From IMG/VR virus record IMGVR_UViG_3300023118_000002, positions 1-60,247 of that record: a DNA stretch of 60,247 bases; one strand, written 5' to 3'. Below, in pieces: positions 4,156-60,247 of this stretch. Both the position numbers and the translations under genes were made by a program. This DNA comes from a virus (Duplodnaviria > Caudoviricetes). The notes under the pieces are model-generated. The model saw only the letters and a list, made by a program, of their open reading frames with translations, did not search any database and was not told where the DNA came from. The first letter of the stretch is position 1; each line of letters begins with the position of its first letter.

Positions 4156-4182
4156 TCATTATATGCCCTGTTTTTTGCGCGA
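4156..4182 (-). promoter_or_regulatory. phage promoter motif copy 1
   Basis: TCGC GCAAAAA ACA GGGCA TATAATGA. Confidence 0.8.
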
Positions 4183-4183
4183 G

Positions 4184-4540: not shown

Positions 4541-4710
4541 TCTTCTCCTTCTAGGTGGTCTACGATCTTCGCAAACTCGAGGTTGTCATTAAGTGTCCGA
4601 AGCATCTCGAAAGCTTCGTTTAGTGCTTTGATTTCATCTTCTTTGCGGATCAGGGCAAATATACTTACACCCAGGGCTGCACTTGCGATGACGATAGCGA
4701 TTTTATTCAT
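4537..4710 (-). CDS. small protein with N-terminal TM helix
   Basis: MNKIAIVIASAALGVSIFAL; fills the gap. Confidence 0.65.
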   Translation of the reverse strand: MNKIAIVIASAALGVSIFALIRKEDEIKALNEAFEMLRTLNDNLEFAKIVDHLEGED

Positions 4711-4770
4711 ACGCGACCTTTGCAAAGTAAAACCCTAGGCCGTGAGGCTTTCGGGTATTGGATCTTTTAG

Positions 4771-4923
4771 TTAAACGAGTTTGGATGCTCGGTAGGCGTA
4801 TGCGGAGGATTCCACAGTCTTAGCGACGGCCTTCAGGAGTCCGGTTGCTACTACAGCAGCGGACAAGAGAATGGTCGCGGCGAAGATGGGGTCTTCTTCG
4901 AAACGGGCTTTGAGTTTCTTCAT
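4771..4923 (-). CDS. small single-TM protein
   Basis: Promoter and extended RBS upstream; hairpin 4729-4759 downstream. Confidence 0.75.
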   Translation of the reverse strand: MKKLKARFEEDPIFAATILLSAAVVATGLLKAVAKTVESSAYAYRASKLV

Positions 4924-4945
4924 TGGTTTTCCTTTCAAGAGGGTT

Positions 4946-4972
4946 TCATTATAGGGGTTGTTTTTAATGCGA
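4946..4972 (-). promoter_or_regulatory. phage promoter motif copy 2
   Basis: TCGC ATTAAAA ACA ACCCC TATAATGA. Confidence 0.8.
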
Positions 4973-5085
4973 GGCTTTATGGCATTTGCAATCACAGTCT
5001 ACGTGTGCGCCTTTATACCCCCGAATATCGTTCTTGCATTCTTCGTGGTTGCCCATAAAGCATTCGTTGGTAAGTGCTTCTCCAC

Positions 5086-5316
5086 TCACGTAGTCACCTC
5101 CTCATCCACCTTGAGAGTTGTCAGCTCGAGGTTCGGATAATGGCGCGCGAAGACGGATTCCGGCATGATCAGAAAGCGCGGACGCTCGCTCCAATCCTCG
5201 ACCAGAATCCAGCCAATGTTCGTGGTGTAAGCCCGCTCATCGACACCTGAAATATGATGCAGGAGATTGGTGTTTTTCTCGGTTACTTTCCAGGCTTTTG
5301 TTTCTTGATTAGCCAT
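5086..5316 (-). CDS. hypothetical protein
   Basis: 76 aa ORF coupled to upstream stop (TAATG). Confidence 0.65.
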   Translation of the reverse strand: MANQETKAWKVTEKNTNLLHHISGVDERAYTTNIGWILVEDWSERPRFLIMPESVFARHYPNLELTTLKVDEEVTT

Positions 5317-5456
5317 TACTTTGCTTCCTCTTCCGCGCGAGCGATCTTGAGTTGTTCTTCCCAGTGCTCAACTTCGTCCCAGAAGCCGAGGCCTGTAGCC
5401 AGCTTACAAAGCTTCTCGAGCGATTCAATCGAATATCCGGTACTGTTGGTCATCAT
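5316..5456 (-). CDS. 46 aa hypothetical protein (MMTNSTGYSIESLEKLCK...)
   Basis: Hand translation; AAGGAGTAAATGATG start context. Confidence 0.6.
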   Translation of the reverse strand: MMTNSTGYSIESLEKLCKLATGLGFWDEVEHWEEQLKIARAEEEAK

Positions 5457-5463
5457 TTACTCC

Positions 5464-5661
5464 TTAAGACAAACGGTTTATCAGGATCTTGCTGAGTGTG
5501 TTGAGTCCGATTATGATGGCGATTCCAACGATGAGCTTCTCTGCTGCGTGGTCAATTACATACGTGACCTGGGCAGGAATCGGAATATCGTTTGTAGCAG
5601 GTTCAGGTGCTGCTTTGGGTTGCTCTTTTACGATGCGAACCTCGAGTTTACGACCAAGCAT
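5464..5661 (-). CDS. small protein with C-terminal TM helix
   Basis: Extended RBS before ATG 5661; the longer ORF-track start runs through a promoter and an ncRNA. Confidence 0.7.
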   Translation of the reverse strand: MLGRKLEVRIVKEQPKAAPEPATNDIPIPAQVTYVIDHAAEKLIVGIAIIIGLNTLSKILINRLS

Positions 5662-5706
5662 AGGGTCTCCTTTCAAGAGAAAAATTATAACCTGTGTTAG
5701 GTTACT

Positions 5707-5763
5707 GAAAAATATCTTACGGATTCGAACCGTGACGCCCCACAATGTGCGAGAGTATCTTTC
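5707..5763 (-). ncRNA. putative ~57 nt tRNA-like small RNA with T-loop
   Basis: Closing stem GAAAGATA/TATTTTTC, hairpin CTCGCA/TGTGGG, T-arm ACGG-TTCGAAT-CCGT; lies between promoter copy 3 and hairpin TAACCT/AGGTTA plus T-run. Confidence 0.5.
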
Positions 5764-5788
5764 ACTATAGGGCTTGTAATTCATGCGA
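5762..5788 (-). promoter_or_regulatory. phage promoter motif copy 3
   Basis: TCGC ATGAATT ACA AGCCC TATAGTGA. Confidence 0.8.
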
Positions 5789-5822
5789 AAAACTATAGGC
5801 CTTGTTAGGGCCCAATAGCTTT
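5788..5822 (-). terminator. hairpin whose T-run abuts the next promoter
   Basis: GCTATTGGGCC-CTAACAA-GGCCTATAGT-TTTT-CGC. Confidence 0.65.
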
Positions 5823-5985
5823 ATTGGATGTTGAACGGGTGATCTTCGGTGACAATTCCGTGAAATGCTTTTTTATTCAAGTTTTGGAGCTTTCGGAGTG
5901 AGAGACCAACTACGATCGCGGTTGCGAGGCAGACAGTCCCAAACAGGATAGCTACTTGCGTTGAGGTAAGTTGCGATTCATTCAT
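5821..5985 (-). CDS. 54 aa single-TM protein (MNESQLTSTQVAILFGTVCLATAIVVGLSL...)
   Basis: Hand translation; promoter copy 4 and GAAAGGA RBS upstream. Confidence 0.7.
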   Translation of the reverse strand: MNESQLTSTQVAILFGTVCLATAIVVGLSLRKLQNLNKKAFHGIVTEDHPFNIQ

Positions 5986-6006
5986 TGGTTTTCCTTTCAG
6001 AGGGGT

Positions 6007-6033
6007 TCATTATAGGCTATGTTTTCCTTGCGA
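6007..6033 (-). promoter_or_regulatory. phage promoter motif copy 4
   Basis: TCGC AAGGAAA ACA TAGCC TATAATGA. Confidence 0.8.
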
Positions 6034-6073
6034 AAAACTATAACCTTTGTGGAATTACCGTGAGGTTATAGTT
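6033..6073 (-). terminator. hairpin whose T-run abuts the next promoter
   Basis: AACTATAACCT...AGGTTATAGTT followed by TTT-CGC. Confidence 0.65.
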
Positions 6074-6078
6074 GGATG

Positions 6079-6336
6079 TTAGTTTGCGGGTATAAACCAC
6101 ATGGGGGTGTTTGGTGCAACGACTGTTTCAATGATTTCGGTAACGCCGTACTTGCGTACATCATCGAGGTACGGGTTGGACAACATTTCTTCGTACACCT
6201 TTTTAAGTTCGAGATCAGGGGCATGTTTGAGCGACACTGCTGCGTAGGCAATGACCGCTCCTCCAATTGCTGCTCCGGCGTAAAGGGCGTAAAAAGTCAG
6301 TTCGTCTTTATGGTTTTTGATGAATGTCTTAAGCAT
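6079..6336 (-). CDS. small single-TM protein
   Basis: Promoter copy 5 and extended RBS. Confidence 0.75.
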   Translation of the reverse strand: MLKTFIKNHKDELTFYALYAGAAIGGAVIAYAAVSLKHAPDLELKKVYEEMLSNPYLDDVRKYGVTEIIETVVAPNTPMWFIPAN

Positions 6337-6365
6337 GGGGTTCTCCTTTCAAGAGAAATTAGGGT

Positions 6366-6392
6366 TCATTATAGGCCGTGTTTTCCTTGCGA
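6366..6392 (-). promoter_or_regulatory. phage promoter motif copy 5
   Basis: TCGC AAGGAAA ACA CGGCC TATAATGA. Confidence 0.8.
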
Positions 6393-6409
6393 AAAAATAT
6401 AACGTATGT

Positions 6410-6456
6410 AAAAAGGGAGGACTAGTCGGCTATTAAGCGTTCTAGTCCTCCCTTTT
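6410..6456 (-). terminator. strong intrinsic terminator
   Basis: AAAAGGGAGGACTAG...CTAGTCCTCCCTTTT perfect 15 bp inverted repeat. Confidence 0.8.
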
Positions 6457-6485
6457 GGGAGTGCTATTGATTGGGTTAGCGGGTA

Positions 6486-6773
6486 TCAGATTTTCTTGAT
6501 CATACTGTAGCTTTTCGAGGTGACAGCACCGATCGATTCTTTCGAGATCACGAGGAGGATTCCGAGGATGTTCACTCCAGCACTGACCCAAACGTCTTTG
6601 CTTACGGCGGTCTTCTTTGGCTTGTTGCCATTGAGGACGTCGTTGAGTTTGACAATTTGGTCTGTGATGCGAGCGTACTCCGCGGAATCGGGATCGTGGG
6701 TTTCGAGATCGGCGATTGCGATGTTGATCATCTTTTCAAGGTGAGGGTATTGTTCAGGTGTTTTCTTCAACAC
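6486..6773 (-). CDS. small membrane protein
   Basis: Promoter copy 6 and extended RBS before GTG; C-terminal hydrophobic helix. Confidence 0.75.
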   Translation of the reverse strand: MLKKTPEQYPHLEKMINIAIADLETHDPDSAEYARITDQIVKLNDVLNGNKPKKTAVSKDVWVSAGVNILGILLVISKESIGAVTSKSYSMIKKI

Positions 6774-6796
6774 GAGGGTCTCCTTTCAAGAGGGGT

Positions 6797-6823
6797 TCAC
6801 TATAGCACTTGTTTTTACTGCGA
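6797..6823 (-). promoter_or_regulatory. phage promoter motif copy 6
   Basis: TCGC AGTAAAA ACA AGTGC TATAGTGA. Confidence 0.8.
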
Positions 6824-20767: not shown

Positions 20768-22774
20768 TTACGCGGTACGAGTGAACGTCCAGTCGCGGTC
20801 GCTGTCGTGCTGGATTCCGTAGTTCGGAGCCGGAACGGCCTCGATGTCGAAAGTAGCGTTGACGGCGATAGCAGGCTGTGCACCCGAGTTCAGGACTGCG
20901 CCAGTGTTCGCGTTCTTGTAGATCACGCCAGTAACGGCCGGGATCGTGACAACACCAGTGCCGTTGACGAAGGTCGGAGCCTGAGCAACGACCACGTGGT
21001 CAGCGTTGATGACGAACGTGACAGCCGACTTCGGCTTGGTCAGCGCACCGGAGATGCGAGTCTCCAGCAGGTACTTCTGCTGGTTGTAGTCGATGTCGAA
21101 GAAGTCGAAGAGGTTGATCTCTCCACCAGCGTCAGCACCAACGGTGTAGTCCGCGAGGTTAACCGCGATACCAATGATGTCGGCGTTGTCCTCCATGACC
21201 TCGACGGTCACGATGTCGGCGACGGTCAGGGCAGCTGCGAGCTCTGCCTTGGTTGCGTACAGACGACGACCCAGGGTGTCCTTCACCAGGATGAGCTTCG
21301 TGAAGACAGCACGAGTGGTGTAGAAGGTGGGGGTACCGGTACCCTTGTAGTTGTTCAGACCCACAACAACAGCATCGATCAGGTCGTTCGGCGCGAGGGT
21401 CGAGGACAGCGGAACGGTGGTGTTGTACATGTCGACGTCGTACGCGATCGGGCGGACGGAGTCCTCGTCGATCTTGTCGTCGTCGTCGGACTCGCGGTTG
21501 TCACCAACGAGGATGGCACGCGCGATTTCCTCGTCGAGCATGACGCGCATCTCAGCCTGAATCCAGACCAGGATGTTGACCTCGGTGATGTCGATGATGT
21601 CATCGCGGTCGAGCTTCTGCTTCTTGTAGACCGTGGTCGGCGTGGTGATGCGACGCAGGAGCTTGATGACCTCGTCCTTCTTGAGGTTACCCTTGACGTA
21701 ACCCTTCGCACGAGCCTCATCTGCCGTCAGGTCAGCCGAGAACGACTTGATCCGAGCAAACGGGCTGTGGTGGGTACCATCGAGAACGTTCTGCACCCAC
21801 TCCATACGACGGGAGACATAGGTGATGCCGTTCTGGTCCAGCTTGGCGTCGGGGAACAGCAGGTCGATGTTCTCGATGCCGTAGTCCGCCGCGTGAGCGA
21901 GGAACGACTGCTTGAGCGAACCGAACTTCGGGCCGTCATCGAGGATGGTCTGAAGCTGAGCCGAGGTGAGCTTCGGACGCTGGGCGCCGTGTGCCAGCGT
22001 GTCCCCGTTCTGCTCGAAGGCGTTGCGCATGTTTTTGATTCCTTCCTGAATCGTTTCGTCGACGTGAGCAAGGAACTCTTCGTCATCAAGTACTGCGGAG
22101 TGTGCTACGGTGCTGCTCGAAGTGGCCTCTTCAACGGCGGCGCCGATGACGTACTCCACAACTTCGGTCTGCTTCGGGGTGAGAGTCTTGAGAATGTCTT
22201 CGACAGTCTCGTTCTCATCCGTTACAACAGTGGACTCGTGCTGAAGCTTCTGCTCCTGCTCGTCGTCCGTCTTGGTGGTGATCTTGTCTCCCACAATTTC
22301 TCCTTCGGGACTTTCGTGCTGGAGCTCTTCTCCAGTGAAAATTACTGCTTCGTCTTCGATGACATCATAGGTTCCGTCACCGTGTGCTAGACTGACATTG
22401 TCAATCTTGGCTTCCATGTTTGCGCCCTGCATTACGAGACTTACTTCCGTAATGTCACCATGCTGGACCAAAGAACCAAGCTGCTGAAGGTTCTTAGCAA
22501 AGATAGAGAGGCTCTCAATGTCACCGTTCTGAACGAGCTGCTTGCCCATCTGACCAGACTCGGTGTCATTAAAGAATCCATAAGTGTAGATGCTGCCATC
22601 TCGGTTCTCGAGAATAGCGTGACCAAGAACATTGTCGAGGTTATCATGACGATGCTTCCAAACTAGCGGGACGGTAAATTTGTCCTGGTGCTTGAAAGCG
22701 TCGGGCATGATAGTCCGTCCATCGCTGCACTTGATACCACTCTTAGTTGCCCATCCACTAAAATCTGCTTCCAT
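20768..22774 (-). CDS. fused prohead protease - scaffold - HK97-fold major capsid protein with C-terminal Ig-like domain
   Basis: HK97-type protease motifs (VWKH, VLGH, SLSI, EVSLV..GAN), acidic linker, capsid region (LDEEIARAILVGD; ETRISGAL.KPKS). Confidence 0.9.
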   Translation of the reverse strand: MEADFSGWATKSGIKCSDGRTIMPDAFKHQDKFTVPLVWKHRHDNLDNVLGHAILENRDGSIYTYGFFNDTESGQMGKQLVQNGDIESLSIFAKNLQQLGSLVQHGDITEVSLVMQGANMEAKIDNVSLAHGDGTYDVIEDEAVIFTGEELQHESPEGEIVGDKITTKTDDEQEQKLQHESTVVTDENETVEDILKTLTPKQTEVVEYVIGAAVEEATSSSTVAHSAVLDDEEFLAHVDETIQEGIKNMRNAFEQNGDTLAHGAQRPKLTSAQLQTILDDGPKFGSLKQSFLAHAADYGIENIDLLFPDAKLDQNGITYVSRRMEWVQNVLDGTHHSPFARIKSFSADLTADEARAKGYVKGNLKKDEVIKLLRRITTPTTVYKKQKLDRDDIIDITEVNILVWIQAEMRVMLDEEIARAILVGDNRESDDDDKIDEDSVRPIAYDVDMYNTTVPLSSTLAPNDLIDAVVVGLNNYKGTGTPTFYTTRAVFTKLILVKDTLGRRLYATKAELAAALTVADIVTVEVMEDNADIIGIAVNLADYTVGADAGGEINLFDFFDIDYNQQKYLLETRISGALTKPKSAVTFVINADHVVVAQAPTFVNGTGVVTIPAVTGVIYKNANTGAVLNSGAQPAIAVNATFDIEAVPAPNYGIQHDSDRDWTFTRTA

Positions 22775-22796: not shown

Positions 22797-23510
22797 CTAG
22801 AGATGGTAATAGTGCTTTAGACTTTTATGCTTCTTGCTAGATTTGCGTTTAGCCTTTGCTTTTCCGCGAGCTTTCTTCTTTGGCGGTGGTTTGACATAGC
22901 CCGCAACCTGATCGTGGATGTTCTGCTTTTCAGTATCCGCAATGTTTTGGTATTTAGCTTGCAAGTCATCCATTGCTTTAGAATAGGCTTCGCGCGCAGA
23001 CTTTACTGCATCCGAGAGTTCGTTTGAAATTCGTGCACGGTCTCTCGCGGCTTGACCAGCGGCGTTGTTATACTTGTCGCCAGATTCTTTAGCAGCTCTA
23101 GCTTTGATCTGACGATTCTGTTGCTCGATAAATGCACGCTGTTTAGGCGTAGCATCGGCAGGTATTGGATTTAGTTTGACAGCTGTATTAGCTGCCACAA
23201 GACCCTTTACAATGTCATCGAGTGTAGAATTGATTTGATCAACTGCAGCTTGGGCTTTCGCAACGAGCGCCTCAAGTTTAGCCTTTTGAGCTTCTTGAGA
23301 TGATGTTAGCTCAGCCTTTTTAGCTTTAGAGATGCTATCCCTAGCAACCGCATAAGTATCTCTTTGCTCCTTAGAAGTAAGAGCCGAACGCGCATTCTTA
23401 TCAGCCAACTGCTTAGTACGCTCGTAATATTCATGAGCTTTTACTGGATCGTAGTAGGGAGATGAATAATGCGCTAAACTTTGCTCGTCATACGTCGGAG
23501 TGTCATCCAT
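22797..23510 (-). CDS. coiled-coil protein with LAH leader and basic C-terminus; putative internal virion protein
   Basis: SLAHYSSPYYDP at N-terminus; Lys-rich tail; between portal and capsid. Confidence 0.65.
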   Translation of the reverse strand: MDDTPTYDEQSLAHYSSPYYDPVKAHEYYERTKQLADKNARSALTSKEQRDTYAVARDSISKAKKAELTSSQEAQKAKLEALVAKAQAAVDQINSTLDDIVKGLVAANTAVKLNPIPADATPKQRAFIEQQNRQIKARAAKESGDKYNNAAGQAARDRARISNELSDAVKSAREAYSKAMDDLQAKYQNIADTEKQNIHDQVAGYVKPPPKKKARGKAKAKRKSSKKHKSLKHYYHL

Positions 23511-24948: not shown

Positions 24949-25923
24949 TTATTTGACGACATACTTCCCATTCTTAAGGATAAGTTTAATGACCTCGTGA
25001 CCGGTGTCAATTGACTTAACGCCTTTAATGGTGTTGTATCCGCGATTTACAATTTCAGGATGCGCAAGTAAATAACGGCCGCCGTATTTGACAGTTGCGT
25101 AACCAGCAACTAAAATTCCTGCACCGATTAAATCCTTCTTAAGCGAGTATTCTTTCTTTGGGGCCAAACGGTTGTTATAATCTTTCCGAATAGCACTAGC
25201 TTTGGTAAAAGAATTCTGGCGGTTAGCACGATCGATCTTTGCTTGGTTTGCCGATTCAATTTCAGCTTTATGCCGACCCCAGTGCATACCAAGAACACCA
25301 TGATGAGCCAAAGAATCATCTTCAGGATCAAACTGATTCAGAGCTCGCTCGATGTAATTAATAACCTCTGCTGGATCTAATTCATCGTGTTTAATTGAAG
25401 AGACAGGAATGTTAAGTTCCATAGATGTTAATCCACCCCAAATATCATCAGCTGGACTAAGAATCTCAGTTGTCTTAAAACCCATTTTTTCATAAATATG
25501 CAAAGCGTCCGGTGATTCACCGGGAACTTCAAGCGTTAACTTAGAAATGCCTTTGTCGCGCGCATAATCAATAACACCTGAAACTGCAGCCGAAGCATAC
25601 CCATTCCCACGATGAGCTTTCTTAACGCCCAACCAAACAAGATTTAGAGAATCAGGAGTATCTTGATTGAAAGCGGCTTCTCCAACTTTTTCACCCTTGG
25701 CGTTTTTAAGAGTGAAGCTATGATACTGCTTAACTCTTTCCGCATAACCAGGACTTAGTTTAGAAAGAAGCTTGGGTATGCCAGATGTTGCATCTCGAGA
25801 CACCACAAGCGTTCCGCCACCTTTTAGCTTCTTGGTAAAGGTTGGTCGAGGTTCTTCTTTACGATCGCCCCAGTGCATACCAAGAACACCGTAGTGAGCA
25901 AGGGTCTTATTCAAATATGACAT
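24949..25923 (-). CDS. GNAT acetyltransferase flanked by two LAHxGVLGMHWG modules
   Basis: Acetyl-CoA motif V.K.HRGNGYA and A..IYEKMGF. Confidence 0.8.
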   Translation of the reverse strand: MSYLNKTLAHYGVLGMHWGDRKEEPRPTFTKKLKGGGTLVVSRDATSGIPKLLSKLSPGYAERVKQYHSFTLKNAKGEKVGEAAFNQDTPDSLNLVWLGVKKAHRGNGYASAAVSGVIDYARDKGISKLTLEVPGESPDALHIYEKMGFKTTEILSPADDIWGGLTSMELNIPVSSIKHDELDPAEVINYIERALNQFDPEDDSLAHHGVLGMHWGRHKAEIESANQAKIDRANRQNSFTKASAIRKDYNNRLAPKKEYSLKKDLIGAGILVAGYATVKYGGRYLLAHPEIVNRGYNTIKGVKSIDTGHEVIKLILKNGKYVVK

Positions 25924-27721: not shown

Positions 27722-28141
27722 CTAAAGGTTCTTCATGATTACCATTGCCGCTTTCACACCATACTTGTTGAGGATGGTGGCGCCCCTAGCTACGGCTTTT
27801 TGGCCGACAGGGGTCCGCAAAAGAGCTGCGGCCGCCGTAACAGTAGTTCCAACACCGATAAGAACTTTAACCGCATCATTGCCTTTTTTGATTTTGGCAA
27901 TAGCGGTCTTGTCAGTCTTCAGCTTGGAATATTGCTGTTCAAGCTGCAAACGCTCATTAAGTTTTCTAAGATCTGCGTTCGAAAGGTTGCGAGAGCCCTG
28001 TCGATTGAGCTCACGTGCCTGTGCGTGATCCGGGTGCGGGGGAGCTTTAATTTTTTTGCTTCGTGAGATATCATCCTTACGACGACCCCAGTGCATTCCT
28101 AGAACACCGTAGTGCGAAAGAGTCTTTCCAAATGTCGGCAT
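27722..28141 (-). CDS. basic protein with LSHYGVLGMHWG leader; putative internal virion protein
   Basis: Leader shared with the GNAT protein; LSNADLRKLNERLQLEQQY helix. Confidence 0.7.
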   Translation of the reverse strand: MPTFGKTLSHYGVLGMHWGRRKDDISRSKKIKAPPHPDHAQARELNRQGSRNLSNADLRKLNERLQLEQQYSKLKTDKTAIAKIKKGNDAVKVLIGVGTTVTAAAALLRTPVGQKAVARGATILNKYGVKAAMVIMKNL

Positions 28142-33594: not shown

Positions 33595-33679
33595 CAGTTT
33601 TCTCCTTACTTTGCGTGGTATAGACCCCTGGAGTTTCCAAAGACATACCACAGAATTTCCCCCCGGGGATTTTTTGAGG

Positions 33680-33688
33680 ACAGCGGCG
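33680..33688 (-). other. predicted cos site, 9 nt 3' overhang CGCCGCTGT
   Basis: Non-coding gap between polymerase and lysis/packaging modules; resembles CGCCGxxxT overhangs I recall for related phages. Confidence 0.6.
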
Positions 33689-33745
33689 ATGCAGAGAGGG
33701 GGCCCGAAATTTTAGACCCCCCCTCCCCTACACCTTATAAACTCC

Positions 33746-34006
33746 CTAGTAGTCTGAAGGCGTAACTTTTTTGTAAATCCCGAAAGGATTTTCTTTTATA
33801 AGTTCGTTAATACCTTCTAGAATTGCTGATTCCTGATCAGCATCAGAGAGATCATTACTTGTGATCACATACCTAGCCAGTAGGCCCGTCGAGTAGTAGC
33901 CCAGGTATTCATCATGGGCCAGCCATTCACTGTACTGCGTGAAAGGGTTCCATGGGTTGTCGGTTGTCGTGATCATCACTGCATGATTGTCAGTTACATT
34001 AGTCAT
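33746..34006 (-). CDS. conserved hypothetical protein
   Basis: MITTTDNPWNPFTQY..W block; AAGGA RBS. Confidence 0.7.
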   Translation of the reverse strand: MTNVTDNHAVMITTTDNPWNPFTQYSEWLAHDEYLGYYSTGLLARYVITSNDLSDADQESAILEGINELIKENPFGIYKKVTPSDY

Positions 34007-34030: not shown

Positions 34031-36766
34031 CTACTTGTCAAGTGCTGAGTACAGTGTACTGGTAGAGATACCTAGTCTAGATGCAATCTCCGCAACTGTA
34101 TAGTTGCCTGATGCTAACATGGACTGGGCTAATGCAAGGCTAGCATTGTTAACCTTGGGCCTATCTCTTGGTGTGGCGAGGGATCTAAGATCTTCAACAT
34201 CTGTATTGTCAATGATCTGCTTAAGCTTACTGGCGGTAATGGCACCGGATTGAATGGCGTTCCATTCTTCATCAGTAATCTTAATCTTAATCTTACCAGC
34301 ACCAACCCTAGTACGTGCCTCAGTAAGGGCCATACCATTGACCTTCTTGAGGTCTGCCTTATCAATACCGGGGTTCGCTTCAACCTTAGCCCTTACAATA
34401 GACTGGGCCAACAACTGGGCTTGTCTTTCGAGGGGGGCATTCTTTAGAGCAATGTTTAGCTTAGCATTTAGAGACTTAACCTCATTACTGTAAACACTCT
34501 TAGCAGACTGGCTGTATGGAATGTTCTTAATAGTGAGGGACTCTTTTCTAGCTTCATTAGCAAGAGCCTTTAGACTATTAGCATGATCAGCATAGATGCG
34601 TTCAATTAGGGTACCACCATTACCAGACACAAGGGTATGTGCGTCATTGGTATAGGCGCCTTTCTTAACCTTCTCACGAGAGATGGTAACTTCACCCTTT
34701 TTGTTTGTATAGGTTTCATCAGCAATTACATAATGCTTGTTACCCTTAGCATCAGTCTCCCAATGAGAACCCTTTGGTACGTACATCTTCTCACCAGTAG
34801 CTGCATCAATAGGACCACCAAGGTGCACAGGCCGAGGCTTGCGAGCATCAATGTTTTTATCAGATGTAGTTCTAGAGATCAGTGTAGAGGCACCTTTTTT
34901 AGCACCATTCTGATACTTGCGCTTTAGCTCGTTAATGTTGTTGTCAAGAGCAGAAGCCTTGTAATCTAAGTTGTGTTTCTCAGCATCGATAACAACCATC
35001 GAATGACGAACAGCTCGAGCAATCTCACTTTCATGAGCACCCTTAATAGTCATGTCCGTAATTAGATTAGAAACATCACCCATAAGCTGTTGCTTAAGAC
35101 CGCCTGGATTCTTAGCTCCAGCAAGACCCTTAGTAGAATCTTTCGGAAGCTTGTACAACTCTTTAGGATCAAAGTTCTTAAGTCCACTAAGAGCGGCGGA
35201 AGTCTTAACTTTTCCGTCGTTATTAGGAATTACAAGAACTGTATCACCATCAAAGTCTGCACCTGACAGACGTTCTGCTACCTTGGCATTGATTCCAACT
35301 GCGTCCCTAGCATTCAAAGTAATTGAACGGCGAGCTTCCTTATTACTGTTGTTTACAGTAAGTTGTGGAATCTCAAAGATGCCACCATGAGGGTGACGAA
35401 CTAGAGTGACCACATCTCCATCGTGATACTTAGGAGCAAAGATTTCCGTTTCACTAAGACTGTTAATTGGAAGGATTACATGGTTTGCAGTTCTCGGAAG
35501 ACCAGTTGCTTGAAGTTTCACAGCTGAAGAATCAGCCTCGTCTGCATAAGTCTCGAGCAGCTTGCGCTTAACTCCAGGGTTTGTCAGAGCAAGGATGTCT
35601 TCTAGATCCGCACGCTTTGAGTTCTGCGTAAGATCCAACTGAGCTTTAGCAAGGGCCGGCGTCTGCTTCGAAAGGAACTGTGACGAGAAGTTATTAGACC
35701 AGGTGTACCAATCACCTTCCTCATTCACAATGTTCAGAGGCGAACGCTCAACCTTACCTGTCTTAGGATCTGTGTAACCCTTAGGCCGAGTAATAGAACC
35801 AAACGGATTCGATTCGTCTCCAGTCTGAGGCTTCAAAGCGTCTAGCTTGTTACCGGTATCTTTTTTGTTGGTATTGAACAGAATGTCAACGCCCTTAGGC
35901 AGATCATCCTTGTACATTGCCATACCCTTGATGTAGTGCGTACCATCAACAGGGACACGAACCTGAGCATAGTTTGCATTGCCCAAAGAAATGTCAGCGA
36001 CACCCGGACGAAGGTACATCACACCATCAGAAGCAGCACCACCGTCAGGACCATACTTAACCTCAACACGCTTCGAACTGATGTTAACAAGAGGGCCCAA
36101 ATCGGCGGCTTTCTTATTAGTATCAGGATCGATGTATTCAGCGATGCTATGGATTTTATCCTTGTTGTGATAAACCTCTTTAGCAGTTGTAGATTCGTGT
36201 ACTAAGACCTTCAAAGAAGTCTTCTTACCGGTACCTACCTGAGTTACGTCGGTGTAACGAATAACGTAACCCTGGTCCTTAAGCATAGCAATGCCCGTCT
36301 TAAGAGTCGTGTCACTGATTCCCATGTGGTTCTCAGTACCCTTACCGACATCGACATACTTGTACTTGTCAACGTTGTCTTTAAGGATGTTAGCAACAAC
36401 CTGGTTACGATTAGCACGCTCCTGAACAATGGGGTCCATAAGAGCCCGAACAGAAGATTCGTTCATACCCAACTGCTTACCGATTGCGCTGTTGCTCATA
36501 CCCTTATCTTTAAGAGCCATGATACGACGAGTTTTCTCGGCACGAACATCGTTAGAAGAGATAGAGCGGCGAGCACGGAGATCAGCTGTAGAACTAAAAC
36601 CCAGTCCCTCAGCAATCTTAACCTCACTCAAACCCTTCTTCTTAAGATCTTCATAGGCTGCTAGAAAGCTGACGCCACTTTGGTAAGGGTCTTCACCTGA
36701 ACCCCAAGGATAGCGTCCTGAGTGATGCGGAGTACCATAGTGAGCGAGCGTTGATTCGTCATTCAC
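34031..36766 (-). CDS. single-subunit two-barrel RNA polymerase (YonO/cellular RdRP-like) with HTH domains
   Basis: SGADFDGD at 35243-35266 preceded by LVRHP; upstream SDG and AQVR..YIKGM; three HTH-like segments; AAGGAG before GTG 36766. Confidence 0.8.
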   Translation of the reverse strand: MNDESTLAHYGTPHHSGRYPWGSGEDPYQSGVSFLAAYEDLKKKGLSEVKIAEGLGFSSTADLRARRSISSNDVRAEKTRRIMALKDKGMSNSAIGKQLGMNESSVRALMDPIVQERANRNQVVANILKDNVDKYKYVDVGKGTENHMGISDTTLKTGIAMLKDQGYVIRYTDVTQVGTGKKTSLKVLVHESTTAKEVYHNKDKIHSIAEYIDPDTNKKAADLGPLVNISSKRVEVKYGPDGGAASDGVMYLRPGVADISLGNANYAQVRVPVDGTHYIKGMAMYKDDLPKGVDILFNTNKKDTGNKLDALKPQTGDESNPFGSITRPKGYTDPKTGKVERSPLNIVNEEGDWYTWSNNFSSQFLSKQTPALAKAQLDLTQNSKRADLEDILALTNPGVKRKLLETYADEADSSAVKLQATGLPRTANHVILPINSLSETEIFAPKYHDGDVVTLVRHPHGGIFEIPQLTVNNSNKEARRSITLNARDAVGINAKVAERLSGADFDGDTVLVIPNNDGKVKTSAALSGLKNFDPKELYKLPKDSTKGLAGAKNPGGLKQQLMGDVSNLITDMTIKGAHESEIARAVRHSMVVIDAEKHNLDYKASALDNNINELKRKYQNGAKKGASTLISRTTSDKNIDARKPRPVHLGGPIDAATGEKMYVPKGSHWETDAKGNKHYVIADETYTNKKGEVTISREKVKKGAYTNDAHTLVSGNGGTLIERIYADHANSLKALANEARKESLTIKNIPYSQSAKSVYSNEVKSLNAKLNIALKNAPLERQAQLLAQSIVRAKVEANPGIDKADLKKVNGMALTEARTRVGAGKIKIKITDEEWNAIQSGAITASKLKQIIDNTDVEDLRSLATPRDRPKVNNASLALAQSMLASGNYTVAEIASRLGISTSTLYSALDK

Positions 36767-37346
36767 CGAAGGTCTCCTTATCGATCTCAGTAATGCGGCG
36801 GTCAAAGGTTTTGATTGAATCGATGATGTGCATCAAGTCATCCAGATCCGGAACATAGATCTCAACTGCATCGCCCTTGTAGATACGAAGTTCGATGTCG
36901 ATGTCGGCCGGGTTGTGACCATACTCGAGACAAAAGATGCAGGCATAGATTTCAAGCTGGCGCATGTAAGTACGAGTAGTACCAGTCTTGAGATCATGAA
37001 TGCGAAGCATCCAACGTTCAGTCTTGGGATCGTAACGGAATGAAATGGTGTCAGCTGTACCGAAACAATTTGGAGAGTAGTACAAAGGCTGCTCTGGCTG
37101 CATTTTGAAACCGATACCGTCATTGACGTAAAGGTTCATAGTCTTACGAACGTCAGGCATTTTAACCCGAAGCGCGATCAGTTCTGCAGCGAGAGCGTGC
37201 TTACGATCTCCGAGCCTAGCTGCCTGAGCAGTGTAGACTCTTTTGTCCATAGCTTCTTCATCATAGTTAGTCCAGCTCGGGTTGCTGGGTGCCATGAGGT
37301 TAGCGTGCTTACCTGCCAACTCGTAGTGCGGATTGAAGCGCATCAA
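36759..37346 (-). CDS. PD-(D/E)XK Cas4/RecB-like exonuclease
   Basis: GDRKH, PEQ, FGTAD, IHDLKTG, QLEIYA motifs. Confidence 0.8.
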   Translation of the reverse strand: MMRFNPHYELAGKHANLMAPSNPSWTNYDEEAMDKRVYTAQAARLGDRKHALAAELIALRVKMPDVRKTMNLYVNDGIGFKMQPEQPLYYSPNCFGTADTISFRYDPKTERWMLRIHDLKTGTTRTYMRQLEIYACIFCLEYGHNPADIDIELRIYKGDAVEIYVPDLDDLMHIIDSIKTFDRRITEIDKETFGE

Positions 37347-37617
37347 GAACCTCCTCTTTGTTTTCTGGATAGATAAACGCGGAGAATGACATCTGGTTCA
37401 TCTGATCAACAAACCAATCCTGGTTAGGCTGATGAGGTGCGTCTTCAGACTTTTTAACTTCTAATGCTGCCCAGCGATTCTTCCATAGAATCAGAAGGTC
37501 GGGAATTCCTTGCTGGTAGCCGGAGTCGTTCTTTTGGATTATGCATCCCGGGAACAGTTCACGCAGCTCTTTAATCAAGTCTGCCTGAAAGTCCCTTTCT
37601 AGTTTAGAGGTCATCAT
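37309..37617 (-). CDS. VRR-NUC endonuclease / Holliday junction resolvase
   Basis: LERDFQ, GIPDL, ALEVK, PNQ motifs. Confidence 0.85.
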   Translation of the reverse strand: MMTSKLERDFQADLIKELRELFPGCIIQKNDSGYQQGIPDLLILWKNRWAALEVKKSEDAPHQPNQDWFVDQMNQMSFSAFIYPENKEEVLDALQSALRVGR

Positions 37618-37679
37618 TTTCTCCTTTAGACAAAAAGGGAAGAATTGCAGAGCCAAAAGCTACTGATATTCTATCTCCT

Positions 37680-37706
37680 TCATTATAACAGATGTTCTTG
37701 GTGCGA
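37680..37706 (-). promoter_or_regulatory. phage promoter motif copy 7, upstream of VRR-NUC/exonuclease/polymerase
   Basis: TCGC ACCAAGA ACA TCTGT TATAATGA. Confidence 0.75.
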
Positions 37707-37708
37707 TA

Positions 37709-38001
37709 GTATGCTATAAAGTCGAGGAAGCTAGACAAAAAAATTATCACATGTAAAAAACACAAATCTCAAATATTTTGGGCAAAAAACTTTTCTGTAG
37801 GAAATTTGATTTTATAGCATGCTATAATTCTAAAATTCTCGCGTAAAGAGTTTATAGCAAAATATTTGTGTTTTTGTGCAGAGGATTTCCCGGAATTCCG
37901 GGGTTTTTAGGGGGTGTCTCAAAAAAACCGTTTCTAAGACACCCCCAAAACCCTCGACTTTATAGCATACACCTCGGCCTACTTGTATGCTATAAAGTCG
38001 G
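37709..38001. repeat. AT-rich non-coding region with inverted iterons; candidate replication origin
   Basis: GTATGCTATAAAGTCGAGG at 37709-37727, exact inverse at 37952-37970, partial copy at 37985-38001; palindrome TTATAGCATGCTATAA at 37812-37827. Confidence 0.7.
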
Positions 38002-38008
38002 GAAAAAA

Positions 38009-44018: not shown

Positions 44019-44220
44019 GTTGTTCTCCTTTCAAGAGAAATATATCTTTTATAGCTTCGTTAGTCCGCTCAAGTCTTTCAACTTCTTGGGTAATGACTAC
44101 TGTTCCGTTTTCTAATCCCTCAAGCAATCGCTTAGCCGTTGGATCGGTATCTTGAGTCTGGATTGCCCGGTCTACAAGCGCTTGGGGGACATATGAAACA
44201 AAGGGCTCGCTTCTATCCAT
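43996..44220 (-). CDS. hypothetical protein
   Basis: 74 aa ORF coupled to upstream stop. Confidence 0.5.
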   Translation of the reverse strand: MDRSEPFVSYVPQALVDRAIQTQDTDPTAKRLLEGLENGTVVITQEVERLERTNEAIKDIFLLKGEQHGKGNSV

Positions 44221-55233: not shown

Positions 55234-56133
55234 TTAGATCTTGTCGTAGATCACCCCGTCGACGTTGAAGTCGAGCCAGATGTTCTTTTCCCAACCGTTG
55301 ATGAAGTTGCGCTTGGACTGAGTGGATGCGTCATACAGACCAAAGTCGATGAAGTTGTCACCGTCCTTGCTGATGATCCATCCCACAACTGCACCTTCAG
55401 GGGTGTGCGGGAATCCGAGACGCTCATAAACCTCATTGAGGAAGATGTGCCCGGTTGCAAGCAGCTTGTCATTGAGTCGGTTCTGCTCGGACGTCAAGAA
55501 GAACTGGTTGTAACCAGCTCCATCCTGCCAGTAGTCATTACCCTCATCAAAGACACGAGCGTACTTGCTCATCTTGGTCGGGTCGACCTCAGTGACCACA
55601 GTCTTCTTACCGTCAGGACCCTTCTCCGAAGACTCGGTGATGCCCAGTCGGTAGTCCCGATCTTTGTCTGCACCGAGGTCCTCGATCACACGAGCACGGT
55701 AAGCCGCGAAGCTCTTCTCAACTGCGTTGTATGCAGCGACAAGTGCGACGTTACGCTTACGCATGATGCCGTGACCTGCAAGGATTGCTCCAGCACCGGA
55801 GATAAAGAGGGACGTAGCAGGGCCATAGAGCTTGGTGAACTCCAGCACGTTTCTCAAATATACTCTGTAAAGCTGGCGCTTGTAGTTGGCCTCGGTGTAC
55901 TCTTCAACCTCGTCAGGGTTTTCCTGAGAGAGAGCATAAGACTGCTTCGTGTCGTTGACACGGCGCTCAGCACGAGCAACCGTTTCTTCAAGACGAAGGG
56001 TAGAACGAACCGCGAGAAAAGCTCCGGCGGACATACTGACAAGACCAACGCCCGTCAGAATCTCCGGCGCGTACTTCTTGACCAGCAGCCCACCTCGGCC
56101 TACAACACCGTTGAGGCTAGTTGGTACCATCAT
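55234..56133 (-). CDS. conserved phage protein (DUF6353-like), paralog of 2877..3671
   Basis: PEILTGVG, FLNEVYERLG, VVGW, LDFNVDG. Confidence 0.75.
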   Translation of the reverse strand: MMVPTSLNGVVGRGGLLVKKYAPEILTGVGLVSMSAGAFLAVRSTLRLEETVARAERRVNDTKQSYALSQENPDEVEEYTEANYKRQLYRVYLRNVLEFTKLYGPATSLFISGAGAILAGHGIMRKRNVALVAAYNAVEKSFAAYRARVIEDLGADKDRDYRLGITESSEKGPDGKKTVVTEVDPTKMSKYARVFDEGNDYWQDGAGYNQFFLTSEQNRLNDKLLATGHIFLNEVYERLGFPHTPEGAVVGWIISKDGDNFIDFGLYDASTQSKRNFINGWEKNIWLDFNVDGVIYDKI

Positions 56134-57972: not shown

Positions 57973-57999
57973 TCGTTATAGTGCATGTTATTTGTGCGA
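57973..57999 (-). promoter_or_regulatory. phage promoter motif copy 8
   Basis: TCGC ACAAATA ACA TGCAC TATAACGA. Confidence 0.75.
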
Positions 58000-58534: not shown

Positions 58535-58576
58535 TTTAGGTTTCTCCTTTCAAGAGAATTTATTTGTTGGTAAAAG

Positions 58577-59989: not shown

Positions 59990-60165
59990 CTTGGGTCCCT
60001 TTCTTCATCTGCTGGTTGTGCTTTGACGATCTCTCGGTAAGTGTCAGTCCACTGGCGGCCTGTCCAAAAGCGATCGTGAGTCACACTCCAGATCTTGTAC
60101 CCGATGGAAGTGTCGTCTGGAGGGTTTTGCTCACTTTCCGGTAGCGCGTTAGTTACTTCATCCAT
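59980..60165 (-). CDS. hypothetical protein
   Basis: 61 aa; start coupled to the stop of the 45..251 gene copy. Confidence 0.6.
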   Translation of the reverse strand: MDEVTNALPESEQNPPDDTSIGYKIWSVTHDRFWTGRQWTDTYREIVKAQPADEERDPRWL

Positions 60166-60247
60166 TAGATAGTGGCTCTAGGAAACGCGTAGATAAAGAG
60201 CACAATACCCAGTACAAGGTTGAATGCTCCGATGAGAGACAGCCCGG
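60121..60247. repeat. 127 bp end overlap, copy of 1..127
   Basis: Exact identity. Confidence 0.95.

What the first reader, a model, noticed from the sequence alone, without database searches (positions are those of the whole stretch)
34031..36766. Compact single-subunit two-barrel RNA polymerase with built-in HTH domains
Seen, in order: two HTHs (GLSEVKIAEGLG, GMSNSAIGKQLGMNESSVR), SDGVMY, AQVR..YIKGM, LVRHP, LSGADFDGD, and a C-terminal HTH (YTVAEIASRLGISTSTLY). Known: DxDGD preceded by R-x-P is the catalytic loop of two-barrel polymerases; the DG, QxR..KG and SGxDxDGD series is typical of cellular RdRPs and their phage relatives such as SPbeta YonO. Inference: a sigma-independent DNA-dependent polymerase easily mislabelled as an HTH protein. 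With the promoter motif and LAH leader it would form a self-contained, possibly virion-delivered transcription system.
Basis: partly seen in the sequence, partly recalled or inferred. Interest (0 to 1): 0.9.

Follow-up and report, generated by a model that had tools for sequence, protein, structure and literature searches.

The report
Phage single-chain two-barrel RNA polymerase
This phage gene encodes a one-protein relative of the cell's RNA polymerase core with DNA-binding modules at both ends; the family was already predicted on paper but never tested, and it travels with its own promoter-like signal and shows hints of riding inside the virus particle.

Summary
ORF 34031-36766 (minus strand, 911 aa, GTG start behind AAGGAG) contains every quoted motif. 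The catalytic-type residues are invariant in 96 of 96 aligned relatives.

An AlphaFold2 model (pLDDT 89.4) gives 20 Foldseek PDB matches at E<=0.001. All that are listed are two-barrel polymerases: QDE-1, Thermus phage gp62/gp64 and plant RDR2.

It is not new as a kind.
- It matches PHROG 4291 over its full length.
- 250 GenBank phage records hold a homologue.
- Koert et al. (bioRxiv 10.1101/842583) predicted this family as an RNA polymerase, with terminal HTHs and DxDGD.
- This scan has reported the family on other DNA at least 27 times.

Beyond the label:
- A promoter-like motif (TCGCA-N3-AAAACA-N5-TATAAT) lacks a sigma-A -35 box. It sits only on the sense strand and only in the non-structural arm, including upstream of the polymerase operon.
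- Its core occurs in all 8 polymerase-encoding phages tested and in 0 of 5 polymerase-less controls.
- Virion delivery is hinted at by the 'structural protein' label on phage 1706 orf75, a conserved L-x-H leader and one portal fusion. It is unproven.

No biochemistry exists for this family as far as my searches show.

The parts
34031..36766 (-). Gene for the 911-aa single-chain two-barrel RNA polymerase (PHROG 4291 family). The longest ORF extends to TTG 36805.
   Evidence: Model pLDDT 89.4. Foldseek matches to QDE-1, gp62/gp64 and RDR2.
36683..36766 (-). N-terminal leader, residues 1-28: TLAH-YG...SGRYPWGSG. Disordered in the model. Family consensus [LIV]xH[YI]G..[RK].SGRYPWGSG..PYQ.
   Evidence: Invariant G11, S16, G17, R18 and G22; H9 in at least 90%. 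pLDDT below 50 at residues 9-21. N-terminal alignment.
36362..36682 (-). N-terminal helical DNA-binding region (residues 29-135) with the two quoted HTHs. The second resembles sigma-70 region 4.
   Evidence: Pfam Sigma70_r4_2, 28.8 bits against a 25.7 cut-off. Helices 29-135.
36167..36337 (-). Winged-helix-like module (residues 144-200), retained in the long fused forms.
   Evidence: Secondary structure: helices H144-147, H152-164, then strands E167-175 and E182-190. Weak HTH_36 hit. The P0198 core starts here.
35717..36067 (-). First beta-barrel region (residues ~234-350) with the DG, QxR and KG motifs.
   Evidence: Strand pattern. Invariant G248, Q268, R270, K280 and G281.
35225..35488 (-). 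Second beta-barrel region (residues ~427-514) with R-x-P and the catalytic-type loop SGADFDGD (DFDGD = 35243-35257).
   Evidence: Invariant R457, P459, S501, G502, D504, D506, G507 and D508. Coordinates.
34034..34273 (-). C-terminal helical region (residues 832-911) ending in an HTH.
   Evidence: Pfam HTH_23, 29.3 bits against 24.6; HTH_7, 24.3 against 23.8.
37680..37706 (-). Tripartite promoter-like motif (TCGCA-N3-AAGAACA-N5-TATAATGA) ahead of the VRR-Nuc / exonuclease / polymerase operon.
   Evidence: Relatives carry the motif about 920 nt upstream of their polymerase gene. JEGGS has it at 54348 and Pepy6 at 72604.
37309..37656 (-). VRR-Nuc-type endonuclease gene, first gene of the operon. 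The likely start is ATG near 37618, behind AAAGGAGAAA.
   Evidence: phrog_93. Synteny. Sequence.
36759..37346 (-). Cas4/RecB-family exonuclease gene, which overlaps the polymerase start codon.
   Evidence: phrog_3953, E=3.3e-62..
33746..34006 (-). Conserved acidic 86-aa gene directly after the polymerase gene (phrog_4303). Function unknown.
   Evidence: Present directly downstream in 34 of 37 loci examined. Alignment A2.
33678..33693 (-). cos-like sequence TGCATCGCCGCTGTCC, the probable physical right end, about 340 nt after the polymerase stop.
   Evidence: Resembles the right terminus of phage 1706 (overhang given in PMC4110766). In relatives the gene ends 300-450 nt from a contig end.
4156..6823 (-). 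Cluster of six copies of the same promoter-like motif heading small-gene cassettes just after the tail genes: 4156-4182, 4946-4972, 5762-5788, 6007-6033, 6366-6392 and 6797-6823.
   Evidence: 8 matches in the window, all on the minus strand, against 0.03 expected.
57973..57999 (-). Eighth copy of the promoter-like motif.

Best explanation
The gene encodes the phage's own single-chain RNA polymerase. It has the two-barrel (double-psi beta-barrel) type of catalytic centre found in cellular RNA polymerases, QDE-1-type RdRPs and phage enzymes such as P23-45 gp64. It belongs to the PHROG 4291 / Lactococcus phage 1706 orf75 family.

Proposed mechanism:
1. The two barrels form the active site. DFDGD (residues 504-508) would hold the catalytic metal, and the R-x-P and QxR/KG residues complete the site.
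2. The terminal HTH and winged-helix modules give the enzyme its own promoter recognition.
3. Its targets are the 25-27 bp motifs TCGCA-N3-(A/T)3ACA-N5-TATA(A/G)T. These head the small-gene cassettes of the non-structural arm and the polymerase's own operon.
4. Most likely the enzyme is made late, taken into the prohead through its N-terminal L-x-H leader, and injected to start transcription without host sigma.

Shown here: the fold, residue conservation, family membership, and co-occurrence of the motif with the gene.
Inferred: catalysis on DNA templates, promoter reading through the HTHs, packaging and injection.

My odds:
- Real, active polymerase: 0.85.
- It reads this motif: 0.6.
- It is virion-delivered: 0.45.

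The confidence given below is for the whole chain of steps.
For: Fold:
- AlphaFold2 model: pLDDT 89.4, pTM 0.83.
- Foldseek against the PDB gave 20 matches at E<=0.001. All that are listed are two-barrel RNA polymerases: QDE-1 7y7s_A (2.3e-9), P74 gp62 8f5m_B (5.9e-7), P32 gp64 8f72_A (6.7e-7), maize and Arabidopsis RDR2.
- Foldseek against BFVD: a 'RNA dependent RNA polymerase' (4.1e-8) and a P23-45 protein (2e-6).

Residues: D504, D506, D508, R457, P459, Q268, R270 and K280 are invariant in 96 of 96 sequences.

Family:
- phrog_4291, E=0, 1189 bits, full length.
- 250 phage records, 249 of them full length.
- 2288 representatives at 50% clustering.

Promoter motif:
- 8 copies in the window, all on the sense strand, against 0.03 expected. 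None lies in the structural arm.
- 55 sense and 0 antisense hits in 80 related loci; 46 of 80 loci have at least one.
- Exact pattern in IMG/VR: at least 117 stretches. Of the first 50 records, 33 encode the polymerase, and 9 of the 10 that are at least 90% complete do.
- Core WWWACA-N5-TATART, sense/antisense: window 6/0, 1706 12/0, Moozy 2/0; Camille 1/0, JEGGS 9/0, Avazak 10/0, P1046 11/0, Pepy6 15/0.
- Polymerase-less controls sk1, TP901-1, phiC31, L5 and ReqiDocB7: 0 sites and 0 polymerase matches.
- TCGCA lies 14 nt and the ACA box 5 nt before TATAAT. That is not sigma-A spacing (my reading of the sequences).

Virion hints:
- Phage 1706 orf75 is labelled 'structural protein' by its depositors. 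In that record the plain label is used on 11 ORFs only; the others are 'putative ...' or 'unknown'.
- The leader TLAH-YG matches the [LV]xH sites that recur 7 times in the protease-capsid linker. Such sites also recur in Moozy gp9 and 1706 orf10.
- The leader also resembles the N-termini of three head-module proteins.
- One relative, P0198, carries a Phage_portal domain (E=2.9e-29) fused ahead of the polymerase core.
Against: - No activity data exist for any member, as far as my searches show.
- Pfam RdRP scores only 14.1 bits, below the 23.8 cut-off.
- HMMER against PDB sequences finds only HTH proteins.
- Overall TM-scores to QDE-1 are low (0.29-0.34). No residue-level superposition was available, so barrel topology rests on Foldseek and the strand pattern.
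- Motif and polymerase could co-occur simply because both descend from one phage lineage.
- One 91%-complete IMG/VR record with the motif lacks the polymerase (G010).

Against virion delivery:
- The leader does not hit the DUF7211 model carried by the head proteins. The leader profile reaches them only at E=0.16 and 0.41.
- Phage 1706 has no DUF7211 proteins.
- I could not read the 1706 paper.
- The portal fusion is a single contig product that I could not check at DNA level.
- A sigma-70-like site, TTGAGA-18-(TG)GATAAT, lies just upstream of the operon at 37772-37743. Host polymerase could therefore make the enzyme. It is seen in only 1 of 33 relatives.
Confidence: 0.45

Rival explanations
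1. Same enzyme, but not carried in the virion. Host sigma-A polymerase transcribes the operon soon after the right genome end enters. The phage polymerase then takes over transcription from the tripartite promoters (as in T7), or transcribes late genes from a promoter not yet identified (as YonO does).
For: - YonO transcribes SPbeta late genes and is made in the cell (PMC5467207: abstract and passages).
- P23-45 gp64, among the better structural matches, is absent from virions (PMC10770324: passages).
- A sigma-70-like site with an extended -10 lies at 37772-37743 ahead of the operon.
- The gene sits about 340 nt from the right end. By analogy with lambda, which I recall and did not test, that end may enter first.
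- The window protein stands alone at 911 aa, unlike the giant or fused virion polymerases.
Against: - The sigma-70-like site is found in only 1 of 33 relatives that keep the tripartite motif ahead of the operon. Such sites are not enriched in the region: 3 found against 7.0 expected.
- The tripartite motif heads early-type small-gene cassettes and never the structural arm. An enzyme that reads it is therefore needed at the very start of infection.
- Phage 1706 orf75 is labelled a structural protein.
Confidence: 0.3
2. The protein polymerises RNA for a purpose other than transcribing phage genes. It could copy RNA, as the RefSeq name 'RNA-dependent RNA polymerase' implies, or make primers or other RNAs for replication or recombination alongside the neighbouring helicase and nucleases.
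For: - The best structural matches are QDE-1 and RDR2, which copy RNA.
- RefSeq names several homologues RdRP.
- The gene closes the replication and recombination module, after helicase, VRR-Nuc and exonuclease.
Against: - QDE-1 also has DNA-dependent activity (PMC9508822: abstract seen in the listing).
- The characterised phage relatives YonO and gp64 transcribe DNA.
- The phage already encodes a 1278-aa primase-polymerase.
- Three DNA-binding HTH modules and a promoter-like motif that travels with the gene fit transcription better.
Confidence: 0.07
3. The polymerase fold is a relic. The protein would act only as a DNA-binding regulator or a structural or ejection protein, through its HTH modules.
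For: - Only HTH families pass Pfam cut-offs.
- Most annotators call it an HTH protein.
- It is labelled 'structural protein' in phage 1706.
Against: - All three aspartates and the R-x-P are invariant in 96 of 96 relatives that are 43-72% identical. That is hard to explain without catalysis.
- The long fused forms keep the core but drop the terminal HTHs: phrog_4291 positions 113-863 of 909.
Confidence: 0.05

Closest known systems
PHROG 4291 = Lactococcus phage 1706 orf75 family. This is the 'HTH domain-containing / putative RNA polymerase' signature protein of the actinophage supercluster plus the Lactococcus and Faecalibacterium phages (Koert et al., bioRxiv 10.1101/842583).
   Same: - Full-length profile match.
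- Same domain order, with terminal HTHs and DxDGD, as described in the passage read.
- Same gene order (VRR-Nuc, exonuclease, polymerase, small ORF, right genome end) in Camille, JEGGS, Avazak, Moozy and Pepy6.
   Different: - At most 53% identical to any cultured phage's protein and 74% to the nearest metagenomic one.
- The passages I read say nothing about a promoter: the word does not occur in the paper. They do not discuss virion delivery either.
Thermus phage P23-45 gp64 / P74-26 gp62, the non-virion single-chain two-barrel RNA polymerases (PDB 8f72, 8f5m; PMC10770324).
   Same: - Compact single-chain phage enzymes of the same fold. Highest target-normalised TM-scores, 0.41-0.43, at E about 6e-7.
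- They read a phage-specific promoter motif.
   Different: - About 590 residues and no HTH modules in the chains matched.
- No sequence match: neither PDB sequence search lists them.
- gp64 is absent from virions.
- Different promoter.
Neurospora QDE-1 and plant RDR2, the cellular RNA-dependent RNA polymerases (Pfam PF05183).
   Same: - Best Foldseek E-values, 2e-9 to 1e-3.
   Different: - Pfam RdRP score is below the cut-off: 14.1 against 23.8 bits.
- Identity is 9-13%.
- Eukaryotic silencing enzymes without HTH modules.
Bacillus prophage SPbeta YonO (PMC5467207).
   Same: A single-chain phage-encoded two-barrel enzyme of about 100 kDa, shown to be a processive DNA-dependent polymerase that transcribes late genes (abstract and passages). 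Phage 1706's protein was grouped with YonO-like proteins in PMC2919709.
   Different: - No direct comparison was made here, because the YonO sequence was not on hand.
- YonO's promoter is undefined.
- The literature I read describes no terminal HTH modules for it.
Virion-delivered phage RNA polymerases: crAss-like phi14:2 gp66, P23-45 gp96 (fused to the tape measure) and N4 vRNAP.
   Same: If the virion hints hold, the logic is the same: an injected enzyme reads private early promoters. The P0198 portal fusion parallels gp96's fusion to a virion part.
   Different: - Those enzymes are giant or fused, and their presence in the virion was shown directly.
- Here the protein stands alone at 911 aa, and packaging is only inferred.
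- N4 vRNAP belongs to the T7-like, not the two-barrel, class (recalled).

Membership tests
Two-barrel (double-psi beta-barrel) RNA polymerase superfamily | Metal-binding DxDxD loop (DFDGD) | tested here: met
   DFDGD at residues 504-508. D504, D506, G507 and D508 are invariant in 96 of 96 sequences.
Two-barrel (double-psi beta-barrel) RNA polymerase superfamily | Invariant R-x-P about 45 residues before the loop (Rpb1 R446 and P448 in PMC2919709) | tested here: met
   LVRHP at 455-459. R457 and P459 are invariant. The list of eight invariant residues was read.
Two-barrel (double-psi beta-barrel) RNA polymerase superfamily | Second barrel contributing the invariant lysines and aspartate (Rpb2 K979, K987 and D837) | tested here: inconclusive
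   Candidates are D247 (at least 90%), R270, K280 and K312 (invariant). No residue-by-residue superposition was available to equate them.
Two-barrel (double-psi beta-barrel) RNA polymerase superfamily | Overall fold like solved two-barrel polymerases | tested here: met
   20 PDB matches at E<=0.001; all that are listed are QDE-1, gp62/gp64 or RDR2, at probability 1.00. TM-scores are only 0.25-0.43.
Two-barrel (double-psi beta-barrel) RNA polymerase superfamily | Template-dependent NTP polymerisation | not testable with these tools
   Needs purified protein.
PHROG 4291 / phage 1706 orf75 family | Full-length match to the family profile | tested here: met
   E=0, 1189 bits, residues 15-923 against profile positions 7-906 of 909.
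PHROG 4291 / phage 1706 orf75 family | Position as the second-to-last gene at the right genome end, after VRR-Nuc and the exonuclease | tested here: met
Pfam PF05183 RdRP (eukaryotic cellular RdRPs) | Score at or above Pfam's gathering threshold | tested here: not met
   14.1 bits against 23.8, E=0.019, residues 508-616. Koert et al. report HHpred probability 95.68% with an alignment.
YonO family (SPbeta) | Sequence or profile similarity to YonO | not tested
   YonO sequence was not on hand. No match named YonO is among the 50 BFVD matches listed.
Virion RNA polymerases | Protein present in purified virions | not testable with these tools
   Indirect evidence only: the 'structural protein' label on 1706 orf75. 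The paper behind it is not held.
Sigma-70 region 4-type HTH | Pfam Sigma70_r4_2 above its cut-off | tested here: met
   28.8 bits against 25.7, P0001 residues 90-122. Promoter binding by it was not tested.
DUF7211 N-terminal motif (head-module proteins) | Match of the polymerase leader to PF23847 | tested here: not met
   No hit at E<=10 for the first 50 residues. Two window proteins do match: 27722-28141 and 24949-25923.

The most novel reading that the evidence does not exclude
Ordinary 40-75 kb siphoviruses of Actinobacteria and Firmicutes would carry a compact, about 100 kDa, two-barrel RNA polymerase inside the capsid.
- It would be recruited, and perhaps trimmed, through an N-terminal L-x-H leader, the same motif at which the prohead protease would cut the capsid scaffold linker.
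- It would be injected with the DNA.
- Through its built-in HTH modules it would recognise one 25-bp tripartite promoter that has stayed nearly constant from Lactococcus to Rhodococcus phages.

That would make it a self-contained, host-sigma-independent early transcription system, and the smallest virion polymerase known.
Probability: 0.4. Interest if true: 0.75.

Novelty: new member of a known kind. Interest (0 to 1): 0.45.

Why it matters
The enzyme family is large: 2288 representatives at 50% clustering and 250 sequenced phage records. It is usually annotated as a plain DNA-binding protein. None of my six literature searches for this polymerase family found a bench test.

If it is active, it would be one of the smallest promoter-specific two-barrel polymerases, and its candidate promoter is already in hand. 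Promoter recognition by a single chain of the cellular polymerase fold would then be directly testable in cultured, harmless hosts such as Arthrobacter, Gordonia, Microbacterium and Lactococcus.

It might also explain why these phages keep G+C contents far below their hosts' (PMC7302621); that link is my inference. For this window in particular, the finding is one more member of a family that this scan has reported many times.

Tried and rejected
- HMMER against PDB sequences, with the single protein and with the 96-sequence profile, found only HTH proteins. The weak catalytic-loop hits, 8h2n_A at E=0.41 and 7s01_d at E=2.3, are not significant.
- Pfam RdRP is below its threshold.
- DUF7211 does not match the polymerase leader. 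A leader profile ranks the two DUF7211 ORFs second and third among the window's ORFs, but only at E=0.16 and 0.41.
- Complex prediction of the polymerase with the 86-aa downstream protein gave no verdict, score 0.00. This is not evidence either way.
- The look-up of sequencing runs listed no RNA holder.
- Searches used a pattern I mistyped (four W instead of three) and are void. They were redone correctly.
- Looking for the long fused forms at DNA level failed:
  - IMG/VR returned only stand-alone cores.
  - JGI metagenomes returned nothing.
  - GTDB genomes returned one stand-alone core in a Marmoricola MAG contig.
  - The protein atlas gave no usable hit for the P0198 linker.
- The Rhodococcus phage WC1 transcriptome paper (PMC10986025) proved irrelevant, because WC1 is a cluster CA phage.
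- The crAss preprint and the P23-45 paper do not mention phage 1706 or actinophages in their main text.
- I considered that the motif is an ordinary host sigma-A promoter. I rejected this as the main reading for three reasons: there is no -35 box at 16-18 nt, the upstream boxes are conserved across host phyla, and the motif is absent from five polymerase-less phages of the same host groups. It is not excluded.

Full report
WHAT IS THERE

The window is a complete uncultured-virus record whose ends repeat (1-127 = 60121-60247). Nearly all genes lie on the minus strand.

The ORF in question runs from 36805 (TTG) or, more likely, 36766 (GTG) to 34031. The GTG sits 7 nt behind AAGGAG and overlaps the stop codon of the upstream exonuclease gene. 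It is also the start used in the public gene call of 911 aa (P0002).

IS IT A TWO-BARREL POLYMERASE?

- Sequence libraries alone say little. Only HTH families pass Pfam's cut-offs, and the eukaryotic RdRP family scores 14.1 bits against a cut-off of 23.8. PDB sequence searches find only HTH proteins.
- PHROGs gives a full-length match to phrog_4291, named 'RNA-dependent RNA polymerase' (E=0, 1189 bits).
- An exhaustive HMMER search found 2288 cluster representatives, 884 of them at E<=1e-30.
- In an alignment of 96 of these, 43-72% identical to the window protein, the invariant positions include R457, P459, S501, G502, D504, D506, G507 and D508 in the second barrel, and G248, Q268, R270, K280 and G281 in the first.
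- An AlphaFold2 model built on that alignment is confident (pLDDT 89.4, pTM 0.83). It shows two beta-rich blocks at about residues 234-350 and 427-514, with helical domains between and after them.
- Foldseek against the PDB gives 20 matches at E<=0.001. All that are listed are two-barrel RNA polymerases: QDE-1 (best 2.3e-9), the Thermus phage enzymes P74 gp62 and P32 gp64 (about 6e-7, target TM 0.41-0.43) and plant RDR2. The largest subunits of cellular and viral multisubunit polymerases follow at E about 1e-2.
- BFVD gives the same picture.

I could not see a residue-level superposition, and TM-scores over the whole chain are low (0.25-0.34). The assignment of first-barrel residues to the universal lysines and aspartate therefore stays open.

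ARCHITECTURE

- Disordered leader: residues 1-28.
- Helical region with two HTHs, the second like sigma-70 region 4: 29-135.
- Winged-helix-like module: 144-200.
- Disordered linker.
- Barrel 1: about 234-350.
- Helical domain.
- Barrel 2, with DFDGD: about 427-514.
- Helical and beta-rich domains.
- C-terminal helical region with an HTH: 832-911.

IS IT KNOWN?

Yes, as a prediction.
- tblastn finds 250 phage records, 249 of them full length. They are phages of Arthrobacter (95), Gordonia (55), Streptomyces (54), Lactococcus (13) and others.
- Most are named 'helix-turn-helix DNA-binding domain protein'. Some RefSeq records say 'RNA-dependent RNA polymerase'.
- Koert et al. (bioRxiv 10.1101/842583; passages read) describe exactly this protein as the signature gene of an actinophage supercluster plus the Lactococcus 1706-like and Faecalibacterium phages. 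They report HHpred 95.68% to PF05183, HTH domains at both ends and the DxDGD loop.
- Ruprich-Robert and Thuriaux (PMC2919709; passages) had already listed the phage 1706 protein among YonO-like two-barrel enzymes.
- None of my six literature searches for this polymerase family found a biochemical test.
- The P23-45 paper mentions 23 catalogued RNAP families in supplements that I could not open.
- This scan has reported the family on other DNA at least 27 times, with the same conclusions.

CONTEXT

The gene order is VRR-Nuc endonuclease, Cas4-type exonuclease, polymerase, then a conserved acidic protein of about 85 aa (phrog_4303). It is the same in the window and in Microbacterium, Arthrobacter, Gordonia, Streptomyces and Rhodococcus phages.

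In these phages, and in most long IMG/VR contigs, the polymerase gene ends 300-450 nt from the right genome end. In the window a cos-like sequence at 33678-33693 resembles the right terminus of phage 1706.

After that point comes the structural arm: lysin-like gene, HNH, large terminase, portal, protease-capsid fusion and tape measure.

THE PROMOTER-LIKE MOTIF

- TCGCA-N3-AAAACA-N5-TATAAT(GA) occurs 8 times in the window, always on the coding strand, against 0.03 expected.
  - Six copies head small-gene cassettes just after the tail genes (4156-6823).
  - One lies ahead of the polymerase operon (37680-37706).
  - One is at 57973.
  - None is in the structural arm.
- The TCGCA box lies 14 nt and the ACA box 5 nt upstream of TATAAT. 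Neither can serve as a sigma-A -35 element, and no TTGACA-like hexamer sits at 16-18 nt (sequences).
- The motif travels with the polymerase.
  - 55 sense and 0 antisense hits, at up to 3 mismatches, in 80 related loci. Typically they lie about 920 nt before the polymerase gene.
  - At least 117 exact copies in IMG/VR.
  - Of the first 50 such records, 33 encode the polymerase. Of the 10 that are at least 90% complete, 9 do. The other 30 listed loci were not searched.
- The core WWWACA-N5-TATART, sense/antisense:
  - Window 6/0, phage 1706 12/0, Moozy 2/0.
  - Camille 1/0, JEGGS 9/0, Avazak 10/0, P1046 11/0, Pepy6 15/0.
  - No sites in sk1, TP901-1, phiC31, L5 or ReqiDocB7, which also lack the polymerase.
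- In Lactococcus phage 1706 the sites read TTTACA-N5-TATAGT. That is a poor sigma-A promoter for that host (my reading).
- According to Koert et al., the polymerase is the only transcription-type protein conserved across the group. It is therefore the obvious reader of this motif.
- This is co-occurrence, not proof. Shared descent could produce the same pattern.

VIRION DELIVERY

For:
- If the enzyme reads the motif, it is needed before any phage gene is expressed, including its own operon.
- Phage 1706 orf75 (1029 aa, a clear homologue) is labelled 'structural protein' by its depositors. In that record the plain label is given to 11 ORFs, and everything else is 'putative ...' or 'unknown'. 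This suggests detection in virions, but I could not read the paper. Pepy6 gp106 merely repeats the label by similarity.
- The leader is conserved: [LIV]xH[YI]G..[RK].SGRYPWGSG.
  - Its L-x-H matches sites that recur seven times in the linker between the protease and capsid domains of the window's fusion protein. Such sites also recur in Moozy gp9 and 1706 orf10.
  - It also resembles the N-termini of three head-module proteins.
- One relative, P0198 (1789 aa), has a Phage_portal domain (76-389, E=2.9e-29) fused ahead of the polymerase core. Two more long forms, P0210 and P0271, carry other N-terminal extensions of about 1050 aa.

Against:
- The leader does not match the DUF7211 model of the head proteins, and profile similarity is not significant.
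- Phage 1706 has no such head proteins.
- A good sigma-70-like site with an extended -10 lies at 37772-37743, just upstream of the operon. It is seen in only 1 of the 33 relatives that keep the tripartite motif there, and an E. coli-type consensus is a weak detector of actinobacterial promoters.

VERDICT

The protein is a new member of a known, computationally predicted but biochemically untested family.

The most likely mechanism is a phage-encoded DNA-dependent transcriptase that recognises a private tripartite promoter through its own HTH modules. My odds:
- Active polymerase: 0.85.
- It reads the motif: 0.6.
- It is carried in the virion: 0.45.

The main rival is the same enzyme made in the cell after host transcription (0.3).

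Noticed in passing
P0198 (1789 aa), P0210 (1809 aa) and P0271 (1799 aa); not in the window: These are long forms of the family. P0198 carries a Pfam Phage_portal domain (residues 76-389) fused, through a linker of about 650 aa, to the polymerase core. P0210 and P0271 have other extensions of about 1050 aa, with phrog_8314. The two whose profile match runs through the C-terminal half (P0198, P0210) lack the N-terminal leader, the first HTHs and the last HTH. Each is a single-contig product.
   Followed up: partly
window 37657-38008: The 352-nt gap ahead of the polymerase operon holds several copies of GACTTTATAGCATAC-like sequence, including an inverted pair. Phage 1706 has an analogous 448-nt gap with CTATCACGAAAAAACTTCGGG repeats before orf75. 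These could be operators for the HTH modules or an origin.
   Followed up: no
window 37743-37772 (-): A sigma-70-like site, TTGAGA-18-(TG)GATAAT, matches 10 of 12 positions and lies just upstream of the tripartite motif. It is found in only 1 of 33 relatives.
   Followed up: yes
window 20768-22774 (-): The protease-capsid fusion protein has seven [LV]-x-H sites within residues 129-294, between its two domains. Such sites also recur in Streptomyces phage Moozy gp9 and Lactococcus phage 1706 orf10. They are candidate maturation cleavage sites.
   Followed up: partly
window 27722-28141, 24949-25923 and 22797-23510 (-): Three head-module proteins start with T/S-L-[AS]-H-Y-[GS]. Two of them match Pfam DUF7211. 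One of these is a GNAT acetyltransferase with a second, internal copy of the motif.
   Followed up: partly
window 33678-33693 (-): The cos-like sequence TGCATCGCCGCTGTCC resembles the right terminus of Lactococcus phage 1706. The contig is a circular permutation of a cos genome.
   Followed up: partly
window: 13 sites, for example 6344-6356, 44026-44038 and 58545-58557 (-): An extended ribosome-binding leader, TCTCTTGAAAGGAG(A), precedes 13 minus-strand gene starts: 15 matches against 2.2 expected. It is almost absent from the related loci, with 1 of 80 matching.
   Followed up: partly
window 33746-34006 (-): An acidic 86-aa protein (phrog_4303) is conserved directly after the polymerase gene in 34 of 37 loci examined. 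M11, T14, D16, N17, P18, P21, W28, D32, G36, L43, R45 and S50 are invariant. Its function is unknown.
   Followed up: partly
window 55234-56133 and 2877-3671 (-): Two paralogous genes both match phrog_2152, of unknown function (E=1.9e-68 and 1.2e-70).
   Followed up: no
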